64,000 nucleotides of DNA from IMG/VR virus record IMGVR_UViG_3300029953_000012, positions 36,201 through 100,200 of that record, one strand, 5' to 3'. The notes beneath the pieces were generated by a model, which saw only the letters and a program-made list of their open reading frames with translations, was not told the DNA's origin and ran no database searches. The translations under genes were made by a program, and so were the position numbers. Positions within the stretch are counted from its first letter, which is position 1, and each line of letters opens with the position of its first letter. Shown here one piece after another: positions 1,156 to 13,177 of the stretch. Source of the DNA: a virus.

Positions 1156-1184
1156 TTGACTTTTTCCGAAAAGTGTTATATTCT
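1156..1184 (+). promoter_or_regulatory. sigma70-type promoter, probably giving a leaderless mRNA
   Basis: TTGACT (1156-1161), 17 nt, then TATTCT (1179-1184), with an overlapping TGnTATATT. The ATG is at 1191. Confidence 0.6.
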
Positions 1185-1190
1185 TAATTC

Positions 1191-1988
1191 ATGAGTGAAA
1201 TTGTTTCTGAAACCGTTGCCGAAATTAAACCAGAAGAAGTCGCAACAGATTTTGCCTCGACAGCCATGCCACCAAGATTATTTGCCCGAAATGGTCATGG
1301 TCTTATAAGAGATGGTAGTATTAAATATGTTTATGATTCTGATGGGTTAGTTAACTGGAGGGCTATGATTGACCCAAAATATCTCGCTATTAACAAATCA
1401 AATTTCGAGAAAAGACAACGCCCCATTCCTGATTCTATTATTGGTCTTGAAGACAAAGACCTTCTTATACTTTTGCCCGGAGTAAAAAAACTCTCTCAGG
1501 TCAGGGGATATGACTCAGTTACTTATTCTGTTGTTTCTCCATCAAAAGATTATGTTGTGGCAACGTGTGAAATAAATTGGATTCCTAATTACGAGACAGA
1601 AAACAAGTCAATAAAATTTAGTGCAATTGGTGATGCTAGTCCCGAAAATACCACAAGTTTTGGTAAGAATTATCTTGGCCCTATTGCTGAAAATCGTGCT
1701 TTTGTCCGCGCCGTGAGGAACTTTTTGAAGATTAATATTGTTTCACAAGAAGAATTAGGCCAAAACGCCATGTCCTCAGACTCCAACACTATCGACCCAA
1801 GTCTTGAAAGTATGTTGGCTGTAATGGACGCATTTGGAATTACGTTCGAGAAGATTAAGGCAACTTTAATTAAAGACGGATTCCCTGATGCAGATAAATT
1901 AGAGAGACTATCTGATATTCCTGCTATAACTAGATTTTCCTTGGTCGGTCGCATTAAGAAGAAAGCTAAAGAGAAGGCGGTAAGTTAA
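1191..1988 (+). CDS. Putative Rad52/Sak-like single-strand annealing protein
   Basis: Motif VVATCEI...FSAIGDASPEN...IAENRAFVRAVRNFLKINIVSQEEL resembles the Rad52-fold 'AEtRAk.RAlr.algi..vs.EEl' signature. Confidence 0.5.
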   Translation: MSEIVSETVAEIKPEEVATDFASTAMPPRLFARNGHGLIRDGSIKYVYDSDGLVNWRAMIDPKYLAINKSNFEKRQRPIPDSIIGLEDKDLLILLPGVKKLSQVRGYDSVTYSVVSPSKDYVVATCEINWIPNYETENKSIKFSAIGDASPENTTSFGKNYLGPIAENRAFVRAVRNFLKINIVSQEELGQNAMSSDSNTIDPSLESMLAVMDAFGITFEKIKATLIKDGFPDADKLERLSDIPAITRFSLVGRIKKKAKEKAVS

Positions 1989-1992
1989 TCAT

Positions 1993-2087
1993 AATCTTTC
2001 TGCGCTGCGTAAATATACGTTGGTAGAAGTGTGTTTCTAAAACACTCACAGAAAGAAAATATAAATTTACAAAACATACTTTACGCA
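1993..2087 (-). ncRNA. Putative pseudoknotted structured RNA, copy B (unknown family)
   Basis: The core GTGAGTGTTTTAGAAACACACTTCT (2049-2025) is 22/25 identical to 12311-12335. P1 pairs 2087-2073 with 2021-2006 and P2 pairs 2056-2047 with 2004-1995. G-U pairs indicate the minus strand. Confidence 0.6.
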
Positions 2088-2091
2088 TAGA

Positions 2092-2100
2092 TAATTACGC
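2092..2100 (-). promoter_or_regulatory. Late-promoter motif variant GCGTAATTA driving RNA copy B
   Basis: One mismatch to the recurring GTGTAATTA. It lies 4 nt upstream of the first paired base of the RNA. Confidence 0.5.
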
Positions 2101-2119
2101 ACAAAATTATGTTTGTGAA

Positions 2120-3052
2120 TTAAGATTTTACGAAATATGTCGGGGAATAGTTTATCAAACTCGAAGCTCTTGAAGCTGGAACAGTGACTGGATTCGAGAG
2201 TACAATGAGCGGAATGCAGTTCGTTATACTTTCACGGGCCTTCAACCCAAAGTTTACATCCTCATACTTACAGAAATTAAACGGCAAAGTTGTATTGTTA
2301 TAGAAAGCGTAACCACCGTTCGAGGAATAATAAAACTTGAAATTTGACGACCCATTAAATAAACTAATTAGTGAAGTTGCTTGGTCTGGGAAAATTGAAA
2401 GTTCGAACGCCTCATATTGCAATTTATTTAACTGAATTGAATAATTAGTATTTGTCCCATCTGTCGGTAAAATTGTTTTAATTTCCAACACGCTGGCTCC
2501 GTTGCTGTTTACGATGTAAGGATTACTGTTCAAGCCTTGATTATGCCATCCTTGATAATATCCAATGGCGGAACTATTAGCATCCCAAATATTGCATTGC
2601 GAACTAAAAAATGCGTTCTGATTCAATAAATAATAAAAATCATCATCCTTAATTAATTTAACCTTAATTTTCTCACCGAGTTGGTATGGATTATTGATTG
2701 GTGCGATGGCGTTGACCGAGTAGTTGACCGCTGTTCCAACATTAGTGTTTAGGTTTGCGTCTACCCTCTGTTGTGTCGCTGGGTTATTCTGCCAACCGCC
2801 CTGATAATTTATCCAAAGTGATTCTGGCCTCTTCACAACGATAACCATGTTTTTGTACTTATCACTCGTTAAAACGCGGTTGGAGGATTCCAATTTGCAG
2901 ATAACATATCTACTTAACAAATCCGCCTGATAGTCTTCTTGAAGACCGGGGTCGCCGTAATTAGCAATAACGGTTGCGTCATAAATAGCGTCTTTGGATT
3001 CCAAATTTCTATTCGTTGTAGTAAGATAATTAAATGTTGTATCGGTTGCCAT
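2120..3052 (-). CDS. Hypothetical virion (tail-tip) protein
   Basis: 310-aa ORF, last gene of the tail operon, rich in N/Y/S. Confidence 0.6.
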   Translation of the reverse strand: MATDTTFNYLTTTNRNLESKDAIYDATVIANYGDPGLQEDYQADLLSRYVICKLESSNRVLTSDKYKNMVIVVKRPESLWINYQGGWQNNPATQQRVDANLNTNVGTAVNYSVNAIAPINNPYQLGEKIKVKLIKDDDFYYLLNQNAFFSSQCNIWDANSSAIGYYQGWHNQGLNSNPYIVNSNGASVLEIKTILPTDGTNTNYSIQLNKLQYEAFELSIFPDQATSLISLFNGSSNFKFYYSSNGGYAFYNNTTLPFNFCKYEDVNFGLKARESITNCIPLIVLSNPVTVPASRASSLINYSPTYFVKS

Positions 3053-3054
3053 AA

Positions 3055-5025
3055 TTAAAATGTAATAATATTATCTACAGTGCCTCCGTCATAACTTCCT
3101 TGATAGGTTGAGTCTAATGGGTCTGTGTTCAAGATGTATGATAGGTCTGTCAAAGGAAAATACGAAATAACAGGAGAGGAATAAGGTAGCAATGCCCCAG
3201 TATTTAAATTAAATGACCTAGTTTGGTAAATGACTTGTTGGTTTGTGATTGTTTGAGAACCTCCAGAAATGATAACTGTTAATAGTCCAGAAACAGCCGA
3301 TGTATTATCAAGACCAGAACAGTTTATTTGAATCCCCATGTTTCCGTCCCCATAAAGACCAATTCCAGTTCCTGAGTAATATCCGGTATAATCAGTTAAT
3401 ACTTGATTTCCGCTTCCTAGATTAAAAGAAATGTCCCAAAATTGGTCAAACTGATAAAGCCCAGTTGTTTTATATAAAAATAAACCACTAGCATCATTTT
3501 CACTACCTTCAACATAAATAATTCCACCCATTAAATCATATACTATACCTCCAGTGAGGTCATAAAGAGGCTGAAGACCCAAACTATCTCCAGTCGCCCT
3601 CAGAAAACTAACATTAGGAGGGTATCCCGTTGAATATCCAAACCCTATATTTGTTATTTCAAGACCCGTCACATAATAAAGGGTACCATCAAAATAAGTC
3701 TGGACAAGACCCGTAAGCCCTGCTGCTTGAGCATAAACAGCCCCAAGACCGTTTGCGAATTTGAATTGCGCGGTTTGATATCCCGATAAATCAGGAACGC
3801 TGTAGCAGCCTCCTCCGGTTCCAAGAATAAAATTTGGGGGTTGTTGATACCCTTTTCCGCTAGAAATCCCAAAAAAGCCGCTTACGACCATAAAATTTGC
3901 TATACCAGTATTATAAATACCGCTTAAAAGAACAGGTTTTAGATATAAAATACCACTTGCTCCTGAAATTGGGCTTCCTCCAGTAAAAGAAACCGGAATT
4001 GTACCCGTACACCCAGAACTGAAAAGAAAACTCTGTAATTGATTTTGAATACCCGTTACATAATAATATTGTGAAAATTCTGCCGTCGGTGGAACAGCGT
4101 ATTCTCCAGAAGCCATTATATTAACTCCAGTTATATATTGAGATAAATATACACCAGTTTCAATTGGGTTAAGGGGTTGAAATACAATACTTAATAACGA
4201 ATTATTAGATATTCCAATATAGGTATGATTGCTGTATTTATAACCCAAATTATAGTTCAACGGATTATCTACATAAACAAATTGATTGCCGCTCCAATAT
4301 CCATTAAATAAAGACGTTTGAGTATAAACGTTTTCGGTAGACGGCGTTAATAATAAAATAGATTGGCTAAGTACGCCTCCGCGATAAGAACTTGAATTAA
4401 CCCCAATATTACCAAAAGTTGTTGGTAAAGAAATGTAAAAATTATTTTGGTATTCAAATAAAGATGGGTCAGCATCTGGCAAAAGGAGATAATTATTACC
4501 GGAATTCGCCACAAGCCCAGTATTATAATTATTGGTTAGCAATGTCTGATTAGAACTTAAAAACTGCAAACTAGGAGGATTTATTGGGAAAACCGTATCG
4601 GAAATGAGAGTCCCAGTTAAAGTCTGGTAATATTCATAGACTGGGTTAAAAGTTAAAGAATAATTTATTTGTTGTGAAGATAAACTCAAATCACATACGA
4701 CATTTGAAGAATTAGCTTGTATAGTTACCTGATTTAACTTTGTAAATGATATATTTTCTTGACCAAAAATACCATTAACTAAATAATTTAAAACTCCACT
4801 TTGATAATACCCAGAGATAGAATTTGCATCTATGGTATTATATGTGCAGACTGGACTTTTTGCAGATAATATACCACCAGAAAAGATAAAAGAAAACACT
4901 CCGCTACCTGTATCATAAAAATTAAAATTTATAATACCAGTATCTGAGACCCTTATCCCAGTGAGACAAAAACTAAAATGACTCACTTGAGGTAAAAATA
5001 CCGAACTTGTTCCCGTAAACTGCAT
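3055..5025 (-). CDS. Ser-Gly/Thr-Gly-rich tail-tip/baseplate protein
   Basis: Start revised to MQFTG at 5025, 1 nt after the upstream TAA. It contains 'V.I...G.GY..pP.v.f' repeats typical of phage tail-tip proteins. Confidence 0.65.
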   Translation of the reverse strand: MQFTGTSSVFLPQVSHFSFCLTGIRVSDTGIINFNFYDTGSGVFSFIFSGGILSAKSPVCTYNTIDANSISGYYQSGVLNYLVNGIFGQENISFTKLNQVTIQANSSNVVCDLSLSSQQINYSLTFNPVYEYYQTLTGTLISDTVFPINPPSLQFLSSNQTLLTNNYNTGLVANSGNNYLLLPDADPSLFEYQNNFYISLPTTFGNIGVNSSSYRGGVLSQSILLLTPSTENVYTQTSLFNGYWSGNQFVYVDNPLNYNLGYKYSNHTYIGISNNSLLSIVFQPLNPIETGVYLSQYITGVNIMASGEYAVPPTAEFSQYYYVTGIQNQLQSFLFSSGCTGTIPVSFTGGSPISGASGILYLKPVLLSGIYNTGIANFMVVSGFFGISSGKGYQQPPNFILGTGGGCYSVPDLSGYQTAQFKFANGLGAVYAQAAGLTGLVQTYFDGTLYYVTGLEITNIGFGYSTGYPPNVSFLRATGDSLGLQPLYDLTGGIVYDLMGGIIYVEGSENDASGLFLYKTTGLYQFDQFWDISFNLGSGNQVLTDYTGYYSGTGIGLYGDGNMGIQINCSGLDNTSAVSGLLTVIISGGSQTITNQQVIYQTRSFNLNTGALLPYSSPVISYFPLTDLSYILNTDPLDSTYQGSYDGGTVDNIITF

Positions 5026-12254: not shown

Positions 12255-12263
12255 GTGTATAAT
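12255..12263 (+). promoter_or_regulatory. Promoter GTGTATAAT driving RNA copy A and the GIY-YIG gene
   Basis: Identical to the variant at 23605-23613 and contains TATAAT. It is back-to-back with the minus-strand motif at 12220 and 4 nt before the RNA structure. Confidence 0.6.
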
Positions 12264-12267
12264 ATTA

Positions 12268-12365
12268 TGTACAGATAATATGAGATTAGTTAGACCATTT
12301 TGGGCTTTTCGTGAGCGTTTTGGAAACGCACTTCTTCTCATAGAACTGTACAGCACGAAAGGCTT
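12268..12365 (+). ncRNA. Putative pseudoknotted structured RNA leader, copy A (unknown family)
   Basis: P1 pairs TGTACAG/CTGTACA and TATGAGA/TCTCATA (12268-12285 with 12336-12352). P2 pairs 12302-12313 with 12354-12365 (12 bp including G-U). P3 is GCGTTT/AAACGC. The structure ends 2 nt before the endonuclease ATG. Confidence 0.65.
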
Positions 12366-12367
12366 TT

Positions 12368-13177
12368 ATGAATAAAATATCGGGGATATACCAAATAATA
12401 AATACAAAAAATGGCAAATTTTACGTTGGAAGCTTAAAGGATTGTTACGCAAGAAAAGGGAGGCATTTTAGGCACTTAAAAAATAGAACTCATTATAATG
12501 ATTATTTACAAAGGTCTTTTGATAAATACGGGGAATCTTCGTTTGTATTTTTAGTCTTGGAAGAAGATATACCTGAAAATAGTTTGCTTTCTATAGAGCA
12601 ATTATATTTAGACGAAATATCTAAAGATAAACAACATTCTATGAATGCTGGTTTTATAGCTGGTAGAGTAGAAATGACAGACGAAATTAAACAAAAAATA
12701 AGAATAACAAGGATAGGGAAGAAAATGAGTGAAGTTACAAAAAAGAAACTTTCTGAATTGGGGTTGGGGGAAAAGAATCACTTTTTTGGGAAACACCATA
12801 CACAAGAATCAAAAAAGAAAATTGGTAAAAAGGGAGAAAAACATCCATTTTTTGGTAAACGTCATTCTGAAGCAAGTAAAAGAAAAATATCCAAAGCTAA
12901 TAAGGGAAGAGTCCTGTCGGTCTTGACTAGAAAAAATATATCTCTTGCTAAAAAAGGAGTTCCTCGTTCAAAAGAGGCTATAAGGAAAACACAATTAGCG
13001 ATAATGATTCCAATAAAACAATTAGACAAAATAACTGGAAATATTATTAAAATTTGGCCGTCTATGAAGGATGCATCAATATCATTAGGAATTAGCAATG
13101 GTTATACTGGCAATATTAGTAGAGCATGTTCAAAAATAAAACCATCTGCCTACGGTTTCAAATGGGAATACGCTTAA
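12368..13177 (+). CDS. Free-standing GIY-YIG homing endonuclease with NUMOD3 repeats and a C-terminal NUMOD1-like domain
   Basis: SGIYQIINTKNGKFYVGS...R...H...N.YLQRSF.KYG...E motif. Repeats 'HFFGKHHTQESKKKI' and 'HPFFGKRHSEASKRKIS'. C-terminus 'WPSMKDAS...ISRAC...SAYGFKWEY'. It is antisense to the tail operon and its stop overlaps the neighbour's stop in TTAA (13174-13177). Confidence 0.92.
   Translation: MNKISGIYQIINTKNGKFYVGSLKDCYARKGRHFRHLKNRTHYNDYLQRSFDKYGESSFVFLVLEEDIPENSLLSIEQLYLDEISKDKQHSMNAGFIAGRVEMTDEIKQKIRITRIGKKMSEVTKKKLSELGLGEKNHFFGKHHTQESKKKIGKKGEKHPFFGKRHSEASKRKISKANKGRVLSVLTRKNISLAKKGVPRSKEAIRKTQLAIMIPIKQLDKITGNIIKIWPSMKDASISLGISNGYTGNISRACSKIKPSAYGFKWEYA

What the first reader, a model, noticed from the sequence alone, without database searches (positions are those of the whole stretch)
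1990..2100. Orphan second copy of the pseudoknot RNA between convergent operons (copy B), with no nuclease gene behind it
Seen in sequence, minus strand: GCGTAATTA, 4 nt, then TGCGTAAA-GTATGTT ... TCTTTCTGTG-AGTGTTTTAGAAACAC-ACTTCT-ACC-AACGTAT-A-TTTACGCA-G-CGCAGAAAGA-TT-ATG. The 25-nt core is 22/25 identical to copy A. P1 and P2 differ in sequence but keep the pairing, the single-G linker, the promoter spacing and the terminal ATG. That ATG opens only MINLPPSL*, antisense to the end of the recombinase gene. Inference: either the scar of a lost endonuclease cassette, or an independently retained small RNA. Intact pairing and promoter argue for selection at the RNA level, possibly acting in trans or as antisense to 1191-1988.
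Basis: partly seen in the sequence, partly recalled or inferred. Interest (0 to 1): 0.82.

Follow-up and report, generated by a model that had tools for sequence, protein, structure and literature searches.

The report
Cargo-less nuclease leader RNA module
Between two converging genes, this uncultured peat phage carries a complete copy of a promoter plus folded leader RNA that elsewhere drives selfish nuclease genes, but here no nuclease follows, so it is either an empty relic or an RNA with a job of its own.

Summary
On the minus strand, 2119-1990 is a full second member of an RNA family absent from Rfam. It has a -35-like TTCACA, GCGTAATTA, a 4-nt spacer, helices P2a/P2b, P1 and P3, the invariant ACUUCU, a one-base linker and an ATG.

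A model built from copy A alone finds copy B at 48.7 bits (E 5e-9); nothing else in the 100-kb genome matches. I found 7 independent loci in peat and groundwater phages. On a structure-blind alignment, 184 of 184 pair cells are paired and 13 of 23 pairs show compensatory changes.

Five loci sit directly before nuclease genes (three GIY-YIG, two Endonuclease VII/HNH-type). Copy B and L064 have none, and no nuclease remnants.

Copy B is a 131-nt insertion. In about 72 of 80 relatives the two flanking genes meet with a gap of -14 to +20 nt, and none carries the leader.

A sister strain (L066) keeps the module with changes that preserve or improve pairing and a consensus promoter.

Best reading (0.5): a nuclease expression cassette that has lost its cargo. 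Rival (0.33): an autonomous RNA module kept by selection.

No transcript evidence exists and no trans target was found. This scan had already reported the family at copy A.

The parts
2114..2119 (-). -35-like TTCACA, starting directly after the stop codon of gene 2120-3052. This is the 5' edge of the inserted module.
   Evidence: The same hexamer lies 16-17 nt before the TAAT(T/A)(A/T) box in B, L066, L064, L068 and L070.
2092..2100 (-). Promoter-like GCGTAATTA, one mismatch from the phage's recurrent GTGTAATTA. In strain L066 it is exactly GTGTAATTA.
   Evidence: 8 exact copies in the window, 7 of them on the minus strand: 6 lie 8-35 nt before a gene start (the 10553 copy has none within 110 nt)..
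2073..2087 (-). P2 5' strand: P2a TGCGTAAA 2087-2080 and P2b GTATGTT 2079-2073.
   Evidence: Duplex with 2006-2021 is -14.9 kcal/mol, z -4.7. P2a columns are 100% paired in 8 sequences, and 5 of 7 pairs are compensatory.
2057..2072 (-). Loop L1 (TTGTAAATTTATATTT). It contains a second promoter-like TTGTAAATT, which is GTGTAAATT in L066.
2047..2056 (-). P1 5' strand, TCTTTCTGTG, pyrimidine-rich.
   Evidence: Pairs with 1995-2004. The P1 columns are 100% paired and 7 of 10 pairs are compensatory.
2025..2046 (-). Conserved core: A, the P3 hairpin GTGTTT-TAG-AAACAC, then ACTTCT, which is invariant in all members.
   Evidence: The second P3 pair is seen as A-U, U-A, C-G, G-C and G.U.
2006..2021 (-). 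P2 3' strand: AACGTAT, a bulged A, then TTTACGCA.
1995..2005 (-). Linker G (2005) and the purine-rich P1 3' strand CGCAGAAAGA. This strand occupies the ribosome landing zone just before the ATG.
1990..1992 (-). ATG at the family's canonical place, 2 nt after P1. It opens only 8 codons, antisense to the end of 1191-1988.
1985..1988 (.). TTAA holding the stop of gene 1191-1988. A second TTAA at 2120-2123 holds the stop of gene 2120-3052. In the nearest relative a single TTAA serves both genes.
1191..1988 (+). Converging gene of 265 aa, from a large phage family with no named domain. 'Recombinase' is not verified.
2120..3052 (-). Last gene of the minus-strand block, 310 aa. An ortholog with 70% identity occurs in relative L090.
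12255..12367 (+). Copy A of the module: GTGTATAAT, a 4-nt spacer, P2, P1, P3, a G linker, then TTTT-ATG.
12368..13177 (+). GIY-YIG + NUMOD3 homing endonuclease gene behind copy A.

Best explanation
Copy B is a complete but cargo-less copy of a portable expression module. In a small group of peat and groundwater phages this module heads free-standing nuclease genes.

The module consists of a promoter, a leader RNA and a start codon. In the leader, a 5'-terminal helix (P2) and an RBS-covering helix (P1) cross each other around an invariant hairpin (P3) followed by ACUUCU.

The module was inserted into the spot where the stop codons of two converging genes normally touch. The most likely history is that a nuclease cassette landed there and its ORF was later lost, or was never copied completely. 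This left 131 nt running exactly from the -35-like box to ATG+1.

In loci that have a nuclease, P1 most likely throttles translation by hiding the ribosome landing zone. At copy B there is nothing left to throttle. If the promoter fires, it makes a folded RNA that runs antisense into the last codons of gene 1191-1988.

Shown: family membership, the fold, the insertion, and the absence of an ORF. Inferred: the former presence of a nuclease, transcription, and translational repression by P1.
For: Membership:
- A model from copy A alone finds copy B at E 5.5e-9.
- Model R2 scores A and B at 109 and 105 bits, with nothing else in the genome.

Fold:
- 184 of 184 cells are paired and 13 of 23 pairs have changes on both sides. 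Slid controls give 42-60% pairing, all on a structure-blind MAFFT alignment.
- The P2 duplex has z from -3.5 to -7.3 in every member.

Cargo elsewhere:
- GIY-YIG+NUMOD3 follows A, L067a and L067b.
- Endonuclease_7 follows L068.
- An endonuclease/EndoVII/HNH PHROG match follows L070.
- In each case the ATG lies 2-8 nt after P1.

Insertion:
- In about 72 of 80 relatives the two converging genes are -14 to +20 nt apart.
- The nearest relative, L090, has the orthologous 310-aa gene overlapping by TTAA.
- No leader occurs in those 80 loci or in 5 whole relative records.

Precedent: nuclease cassettes that abut a converging stop codon are seen at A, L067b and L070.

Known analogy: RBS-sequestering structures before T-even homing endonuclease genes (PMC2988022).
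Against: - No trace of a nuclease ORF remains.
- A random deletion would rarely remove an ORF so cleanly while leaving every helix, both promoter boxes and the ATG intact.
- A second cargo-less member (L064) also lacks remnants.
- None of the 80 relatives has a nuclease at this junction, so the junction is not a known hot spot.
- The L066 allele keeps the module despite a 24% divergent patch over its 5' part. That hints at constraint.
Confidence: 0.5

Rival explanations
1. The promoter-plus-leader is an autonomous functional RNA module, and nucleases merely borrow it as an expression platform. Copy B is then a stand-alone RNA gene kept by selection. Possible roles are a late antisense or insulator transcript at the boundary between the plus-strand and minus-strand gene blocks, a protective 3' structure for the minus-strand operon, or a decoy for whatever factor recognises the invariant P3-ACUUCU core.
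For: - The insert's edges coincide exactly with the conserved edges of the module, from TTCACA to ATG+1.
- Two of 7 loci are cargo-less with no debris.
- In L064 the leader heads a 570-nt ORF-free structured stretch, and its P1 is followed by a T-run. The same core is thus paired with a different downstream arrangement.
- Nucleases of unrelated folds share the leader, which implies the leader moves as a unit.
- The L066 allele has the consensus promoter, G.U changed to A-U, and a U.C mismatch changed to G-C. Its P2 is -18.8 versus -14.9 kcal/mol.
- The lineage keeps this junction gapless, so a useless 131 nt should be purged.
Against: - There is no transcript evidence. RNA contigs lie only inside 1300-1632.
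- No terminator is predicted downstream.
- No specific trans pairing with the copy A mRNA was found (z -2.0).
- L066 and the window are identical outside one patch, so persistence may simply reflect recency.
- The module is absent from all nearer relatives.
- Five of 7 loci are nuclease-linked.
Confidence: 0.33
2. The leader is a sensor, like a riboswitch or a protein-binding operator. A conserved core would be joined to interchangeable output parts: RBS-hiding in most members and terminator-like in L064. Copy B would be a member that has lost its output gene.
For: - Single-stranded positions are invariant (A/G before P3, and ACUUCU), and the P3 stem sequence is conserved beyond what pairing needs.
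- The P1+P3 and P2+P3 conformers are close in energy.
- L1 of L067a, L067b and L068 carries a look-alike of the P1 3' strand that can pair with the P1 5' strand.
- L064 has a T-run directly after P1.
Against: - Only 7 loci are known.
- No ligand or protein partner is known.
- There is no match to any Rfam riboswitch.
- The T-run in L064 lies in a 31% GC genome and may be chance.
Confidence: 0.08
3. It is only a terminator or a chance hairpin cluster between converging operons.
For: It lies between converging genes, which is where terminators are expected.
Against: - No G+C-rich stem followed by a T-run exists on either strand in 1989-2119.
- Homology to copy A has E 5.5e-9.
- The covarying helices are shared with 6 other loci that sit 5' of genes.
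Confidence: 0.02
4. The stretch encodes the 40-residue peptide 2088-1966.
For: An ATG-initiated 40-codon ORF spans the element, and a 40-codon ORF also spans copy A.
Against: - The two ORFs read the shared core in different frames and give unrelated peptides.
- In other members the frame from the same ATG stops after 3-8 codons (read from the sequences).
- Variation follows base pairing, not codons.
Confidence: 0.02

Closest known systems
RBS-sequestering RNA structures before T-even phage homing endonuclease genes (I-TevI, I-TevII, I-TevIII, segB, Aeh1 mobE; review PMC2988022)
   Same: A phage promoter and a stable RNA structure covering the ribosome binding region sit immediately before a selfish nuclease gene. 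The presumed purpose is to keep nuclease translation low or late.
   Different: - Those are simple, unrelated hairpins, and the late promoter lies inside the hairpin so that late transcripts escape repression.
- Here the promoter lies upstream of the whole structure.
- The fold has three covarying helices, two of which cross.
- The core is conserved across nuclease families.
- At copy B there is no nuclease at all.
The uncatalogued nuclease-leader RNA family reported by this scan at copy A (notes e1-6028056, e1-6028066)
   Same: Copy B has every RNA and promoter feature of that family. I re-derived the family independently.
   Different: Copy B, like L064, lacks the downstream nuclease ORF. 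It is an insertion at a converging junction rather than an antisense cassette between two genes on the same strand.
Defunct or decaying homing endonuclease genes in phages (e.g. T4 I-TevIII, title of PMC2790892)
   Same: Loss of a selfish nuclease after fixation is the expected end of the homing cycle.
   Different: Known cases keep a truncated ORF. Here the ORF is gone without residue while the regulatory module is intact.
Cis-antisense RNA next to a homing endonuclease gene in cyanophage S-PM2 (Millard et al. 2010, listed in the references of PMC10690425; details from my own knowledge)
   Same: A phage non-coding transcript associated with a nuclease locus and antisense to a neighbouring gene.
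   Different: That RNA was detected experimentally and has no known shared fold. For copy B the antisense transcription is only inferred from orientation.

Membership tests
Nuclease-leader pseudoknot RNA family (uncatalogued; 7 loci) | Promoter-like xTGTAAxxx box followed by a 4-nt spacer before P2a | tested here: met
   GCGTAATTA + TCTA + TGCGTAAA. All 8 sequences share this layout.
Nuclease-leader pseudoknot RNA family (uncatalogued; 7 loci) | P3 hairpin GNGUUU-NNN-AAACNC followed by ACUUCU | tested here: met
   Positions 2045-2025.
Nuclease-leader pseudoknot RNA family (uncatalogued; 7 loci) | P1 (10 bp or more) and P2a/P2b helices crossing each other, with a 1-2 nt linker between P2a-3' and P1-3' | tested here: met
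   P1 is 10 bp with one G.U, P2a is 8 bp, P2b is 7 bp, and the linker is G.
Nuclease-leader pseudoknot RNA family (uncatalogued; 7 loci) | Start codon 2-8 nt after P1-3' | tested here: met
   TT-ATG at 1994-1990.
Nuclease-leader pseudoknot RNA family (uncatalogued; 7 loci) | Nuclease ORF opened by that start codon | tested here: not met
   The ORF has 8 codons, and tblastn finds no remnant. L064 also fails this feature, so it may not be a defining one.
T-even homing-endonuclease translational hairpins | Structure pairs the ribosome binding region of the nuclease mRNA | tested here: inconclusive
   P1-3' covers -3 to -12 before the ATG.
T-even homing-endonuclease translational hairpins | Late promoter placed inside the structure so that late transcripts escape repression | tested here: not met
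   The promoter-like box lies 4 nt upstream of the first helix. Description taken from PMC2988022.
Intrinsic terminator | G+C-rich hairpin followed by a T-run | tested here: not met
   None on either strand in 1989-2119.
Any Rfam 15 family | Covariance-model match | tested here: not met
   No hit at gathering threshold in the window. Best E is 0.72 at copy B and 1.6 at copy A.
Miniature transposable element | Target-site duplication plus terminal inverted repeats | tested here: not met
   TTAA flanks both sides, but both are needed as stop codons. No terminal inverted repeat was seen on reading the ends.
Cis-antisense regulatory RNA | Detected transcript overlapping the target gene on the opposite strand | not testable with these tools
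   Only assembled RNA contigs were available, and none covers 1990-2100.

The most novel reading that the evidence does not exclude
The promoter-leader unit is a free-living structured RNA, and nucleases of different families have repeatedly captured it. Its conserved pseudoknotted core would be recognised by a phage or host factor or by a small molecule. Copy B would then be a working stand-alone copy, for example a decoy that titrates the factor controlling the nuclease behind copy A, or a late antisense or insulator RNA at the early/late boundary.
Probability: 0.15. Interest if true: 0.8.

Novelty: new variant of a known kind. Interest (0 to 1): 0.55.

Why it matters
Structured leaders that restrain homing endonuclease genes are known only as unrelated hairpins in T-even phages. 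Here a single conserved, pseudoknotted, strongly covarying RNA is shared by nuclease genes of unrelated folds in uncultured soil and groundwater phages. The family also includes complete copies with no nuclease.

If the cargo-less copies are relics, they mark where selfish nucleases have come and gone. They would also show that the regulatory part outlives the gene.

If they are kept by selection, the leader is a new phage RNA with a role of its own, and nucleases are its passengers rather than its owners.

Either way, copy B gives a natural control. It has the same fold and the same promoter type but no ORF, which makes the function of the fold directly testable.

Tried and rejected
- Rfam: no match at gathering or E-value thresholds.
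- INPHARED phage records: no DNA or protein match.
I therefore could not fetch the contexts of the 60-69% identical homologues of gene 1191-1988.
- Sequencing runs: the phage is in more than 20 peat metagenomes. The two DNA runs I laid were letter-identical, showed no joint or insertion at 1990, and did not bridge the element. RNA contigs lay only at 1300-1632, so there is no evidence either way on transcription.
- L061 looked like a relative of copy A's promoter but is an ordinary TTGACA-17-TATAAT promoter.
- Pattern hits L065, L069 and L074-L087 are chance matches inside coding regions.
- Bacterial genomes hold no member.
- 60 loci encoding GIY-YIG relatives hold no further member.
- Nuclease remnants were sought by tblastn at copy B and after the L064 leader; none was found.
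- The junction is not a nuclease hot spot. No nuclease sits there in 80 relatives, and extra ORFs there have no nuclease domains.
- Trans pairing of the copy B RNA with the copy A leader and nuclease start gave z -2.0 and a gappy duplex, which is not convincing.
- Peptide reading rejected.
- Terminator reading rejected.
- Transposon-like ends were not seen.
- The covariance-model alignment from model R1 mis-registered L064 and P2b of copy B. I counted pairs on MAFFT alignments instead.

Full report

The 25-nt core at 2049-2025 matches copy A (12311-12335, plus strand) at 22 of 25 positions. Two of the three differences are the two sides of one P3 base pair, and the third is in the loop.

A covariance model built from copy A alone (R1, helices P2+P3) finds copy B at 48.7 bits, E 5.5e-9. 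The next best hit in the 64-kb window scores 19.6 bits. In the whole 100.2-kb, 36% GC contig there are only these two copies.

The two 40-codon ORFs that span A and B read the core in different frames and give unrelated peptides. The conservation is therefore not at the protein level.

The copy is a true orphan. The ATG at 1992-1990 opens 8 codons, and 1 nt separates it from the TTAA that carries the stop of the converging gene 1191-1988.

**2. Is there a family?**

Two pattern scans built on the core found further members whose flanking helices were not part of the pattern.

| Locus | Source |
|---|---|
| L064 | IMG/VR contig, 42 kb |
| L066, L067, L068, L070 | peat and Hainich groundwater metagenome contigs |
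| second copy in L067 (6039-6169) | found by model R2 at 64 bits; its core differs from the pattern |

L065, L069 and L074-L087 are chance hits in coding DNA. Bacterial genomes hold none.

On a structure-blind MAFFT alignment of the 8 sequences (7 independent loci plus the L066 allele of copy B), I counted helices P2a, P1 and P3:
- 184 of 184 cells are paired.
- 13 of 23 pairs have changes on both sides.
- When partners are slid by 1-3 columns, pairing falls to 42-60%.

P2 as a whole (P2a+P2b) is far stronger than shuffles in every member, with z from -3.5 to -7.3. G.U pairs in P3 and P1 point to selection on RNA, not DNA.

All members also share a promoter-like xTGTAAxxx box and exactly 4 nt before P2a. 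B, L066, L064, L068 and L070 share a -35-like TTCACA 16-17 nt before the TAAT(T/A)(A/T) hexamer.

The same GTGTAAT-type box stands just before ordinary genes in this phage and in L067 and L070. Rfam 15 has no matching family.

**3. What follows the leader elsewhere?**

| Locus | Downstream ORF |
|---|---|
| Copy A | GIY-YIG + NUMOD3, 269 aa |
| L067a, L067b | GIY-YIG/NUMOD3 type |
| L068 | Endonuclease_7 |
| L070 | matches PHROG endonuclease, endonuclease VII and HNH families |
| L064 | no ORF for about 570 nt |

In the five nuclease loci the ATG lies 2-8 nt after P1-3'. In several, the nuclease's stop abuts or overlaps the stop of a converging gene.

In L064, P1 is followed by a T-run and then by a hairpin-rich stretch (z -3.8). 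tblastn with seven nuclease-type proteins (five lie directly behind a leader) and a 325-aa neighbour ORF of L068 finds no remnant there or at copy B.

So five of seven loci are nuclease leaders and two are cleanly cargo-less.

**4. The locus of copy B in relatives**

Gene 1191-1988 belongs to a large phage family: 1934 hits, no Pfam domain, and only weak leads to Sak/Rad52-like proteins.

I fetched 80 IMG/VR loci encoding relatives at 46-63% identity. In about 72 of them the next gene converges with a gap of -14 to +20 nt, most often -4 or 0.

The nearest relative, L090, has the orthologous 310-aa gene (70% identity). The two stops share one TTAA.

None of the 80 loci contains the leader. None of five whole relative records of 53-163 kb does either. 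None of the 80 junctions has a nuclease.

Copy B is therefore a lineage-specific 131-nt insertion (1989-2119) into a junction that normally has no spacer. It is flanked by TTAA on both sides, and each TTAA now serves one gene. The insert runs exactly from the -35-like TTCACA to ATG+1, which is the whole conserved module and nothing else.

**5. A second allele**

L066 is a 1.8-kb peat contig. It is identical to the window over 1465-2071 and 2395-3260 but carries 23 substitutions clustered in 2072-2165, a patch that is 24% divergent.

The patch covers the C-terminal 15 codons of gene 2120-3052, the -35 box, the promoter box and the P2 5' strand.

Within the module:
- The promoter becomes the consensus GTGTAATTA.
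- The first P2b pair changes from G.U to A-U.
- A U.C mismatch next to P2b becomes G-C, and P2 strengthens from -14.9 to -18.8 kcal/mol.
- The 8-nt P2a arm and TTCACA are unchanged.

One pair-preserving change in 15 helix positions, against 18 changes in the 65 neighbouring positions, gives p of about 0.05. This is suggestive only.

The patch must come from a more distant phage that also carried this module at this junction. Whether that phage had a nuclease is unknown.

The laid DNA runs were clonal and gave no further variation. RNA contigs lay only inside 1300-1632.

**6. How it most likely works**

In this phage most genes lack Shine-Dalgarno sequences (19 of 64 have one). Initiation should therefore depend on an open region before the start codon.

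P1-3' is purine-rich and lies at -3 to -12, while P1-5' is pyrimidine-rich. P1 thus occludes the landing zone. This is the same logic as the RBS-sequestering structures of I-TevI, segB and mobE (PMC2988022).

P2 pairs the very 5' end of the transcript with the strand next to P1-3'. The conformers P1+P3 and P2+P3 share no nucleotides and have similar energies. They may form a pseudoknot or may alternate; I could not decide which.

At copy B this machinery has no gene to act on. Transcription from its promoter would yield a folded RNA that continues antisense into the end of 1191-1988. No terminator is predicted.

**7. Weighing the readings**

For a cassette origin:
- The module is nuclease-linked in five of seven loci.
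- It is absent from relatives and inserted at a stop codon, just as the nuclease-bearing cassettes are.

Against a purely neutral relic:
- The ORF is removed without residue while all helices, both promoter boxes and the ATG survive.
- A second clean orphan exists (L064).
- The L066 allele is conserved.
- The lineage is intolerant of spacer at this junction.

My probabilities are:

| Reading | Probability |
|---|---|
| Cargo-less nuclease cassette (relic, possibly still transcribed) | 0.50 |
| Autonomous RNA module kept by selection | 0.33 |
| Sensor-type element | 0.08 |
| Terminator or chance | 0.02 |
| Peptide | 0.02 |

Action in trans has no support.

**8. Novelty**

RBS-hiding leaders of phage homing endonucleases are a known kind. 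What is new is a conserved, covarying, crossing-helix RNA shared across nuclease families, with complete cargo-less copies.

This scan had already reported the family at copy A (notes e1-6028056, e1-6028066). I re-derived it independently and added three results:
- the insertion analysis of the copy B junction,
- the L066 allele,
- the -35 box and the second cargo-less locus.

A literature search found no prior description.

Noticed in passing
L064:9900-10470 (minus strand): About 570 nt without any ORF in three frames follow directly after the L064 leader. The stretch is richer in G+C hairpins than the 31% GC phage around it, folds with z = -3.8, and contains two repeated hairpin + TATTTGCTGT-N2-GCAAAT units. 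It has no Rfam match. It may be a long non-coding RNA or a structured 5' UTR of the MazG-like/sigma-factor operon.
   Followed up: partly
window 2072-2165 versus L066: Two otherwise identical strains differ by a 94-nt patch with 23 substitutions. The patch changes 5 of the last 15 residues of the 310-aa protein. The L066 version is closer to relative L090. This looks like a short recombination tract next to the module.
   Followed up: partly
window 2310-2332 (L066 lacks it): L066 has a 23-nt deletion inside gene 2120-3052 that shifts the frame. This is either a defective variant or an assembly error.
   Followed up: no
first base of P2a in each member (window 2088-2086; 12267-12269): Six of 8 sequences have ATG exactly where the transcript should start. 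It opens mini-ORFs of 3-8 codons over the P2 5' strand in A, L067a, L067b and L070, but 40 codons in B and L066. This could be a leaderless leader peptide or could be chance in AT-rich DNA.
   Followed up: no
L067:3052-3080, L067:6068-6090, L068 loop L1: Loop L1 of three members shares TATAATAA(A/G)TAAAGA. It contains a perfect -10 hexamer and a look-alike of the P1 3' strand that can pair with the P1 5' strand. This is a possible alternative hairpin or internal promoter, and it is absent from copies A and B.
   Followed up: partly
window 1985-1988 and 80 related loci (L090-L169): Across this phage group, the gene homologous to 1191-1988 and the first converging structural gene almost always overlap or abut at their stop codons, often on a shared TTAA. 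This is an unusually rigid, gapless boundary between the plus-strand and minus-strand gene blocks.
   Followed up: yes
window 1191-1988: This is a very widespread phage protein family (1934 hits at E <= 0.001) with no Pfam or PHROG assignment. Protein-atlas neighbours hint weakly at Sak/Rad52-type single-strand annealing proteins.
   Followed up: partly
L070:1-666 and L068:4572-7078: The contigs carrying leaders are crowded with nuclease-type ORFs. L070 has an ORF with an AP2 domain (Pfam) and, by eye only, a LAGLIDADG-like GLVDGDG motif just upstream. L068 has two Endonuclease_7 ORFs in tandem plus a third, 325-aa ORF whose C-terminus looks HNH-like by eye (no Pfam hit).
   Followed up: partly
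window 1156-1184: TTGACT-17-TATTCT, a sigma-70-like promoter, lies just before gene 1191-1988. This suggests host-polymerase (early) expression of the gene that copy B faces.
   Followed up: no
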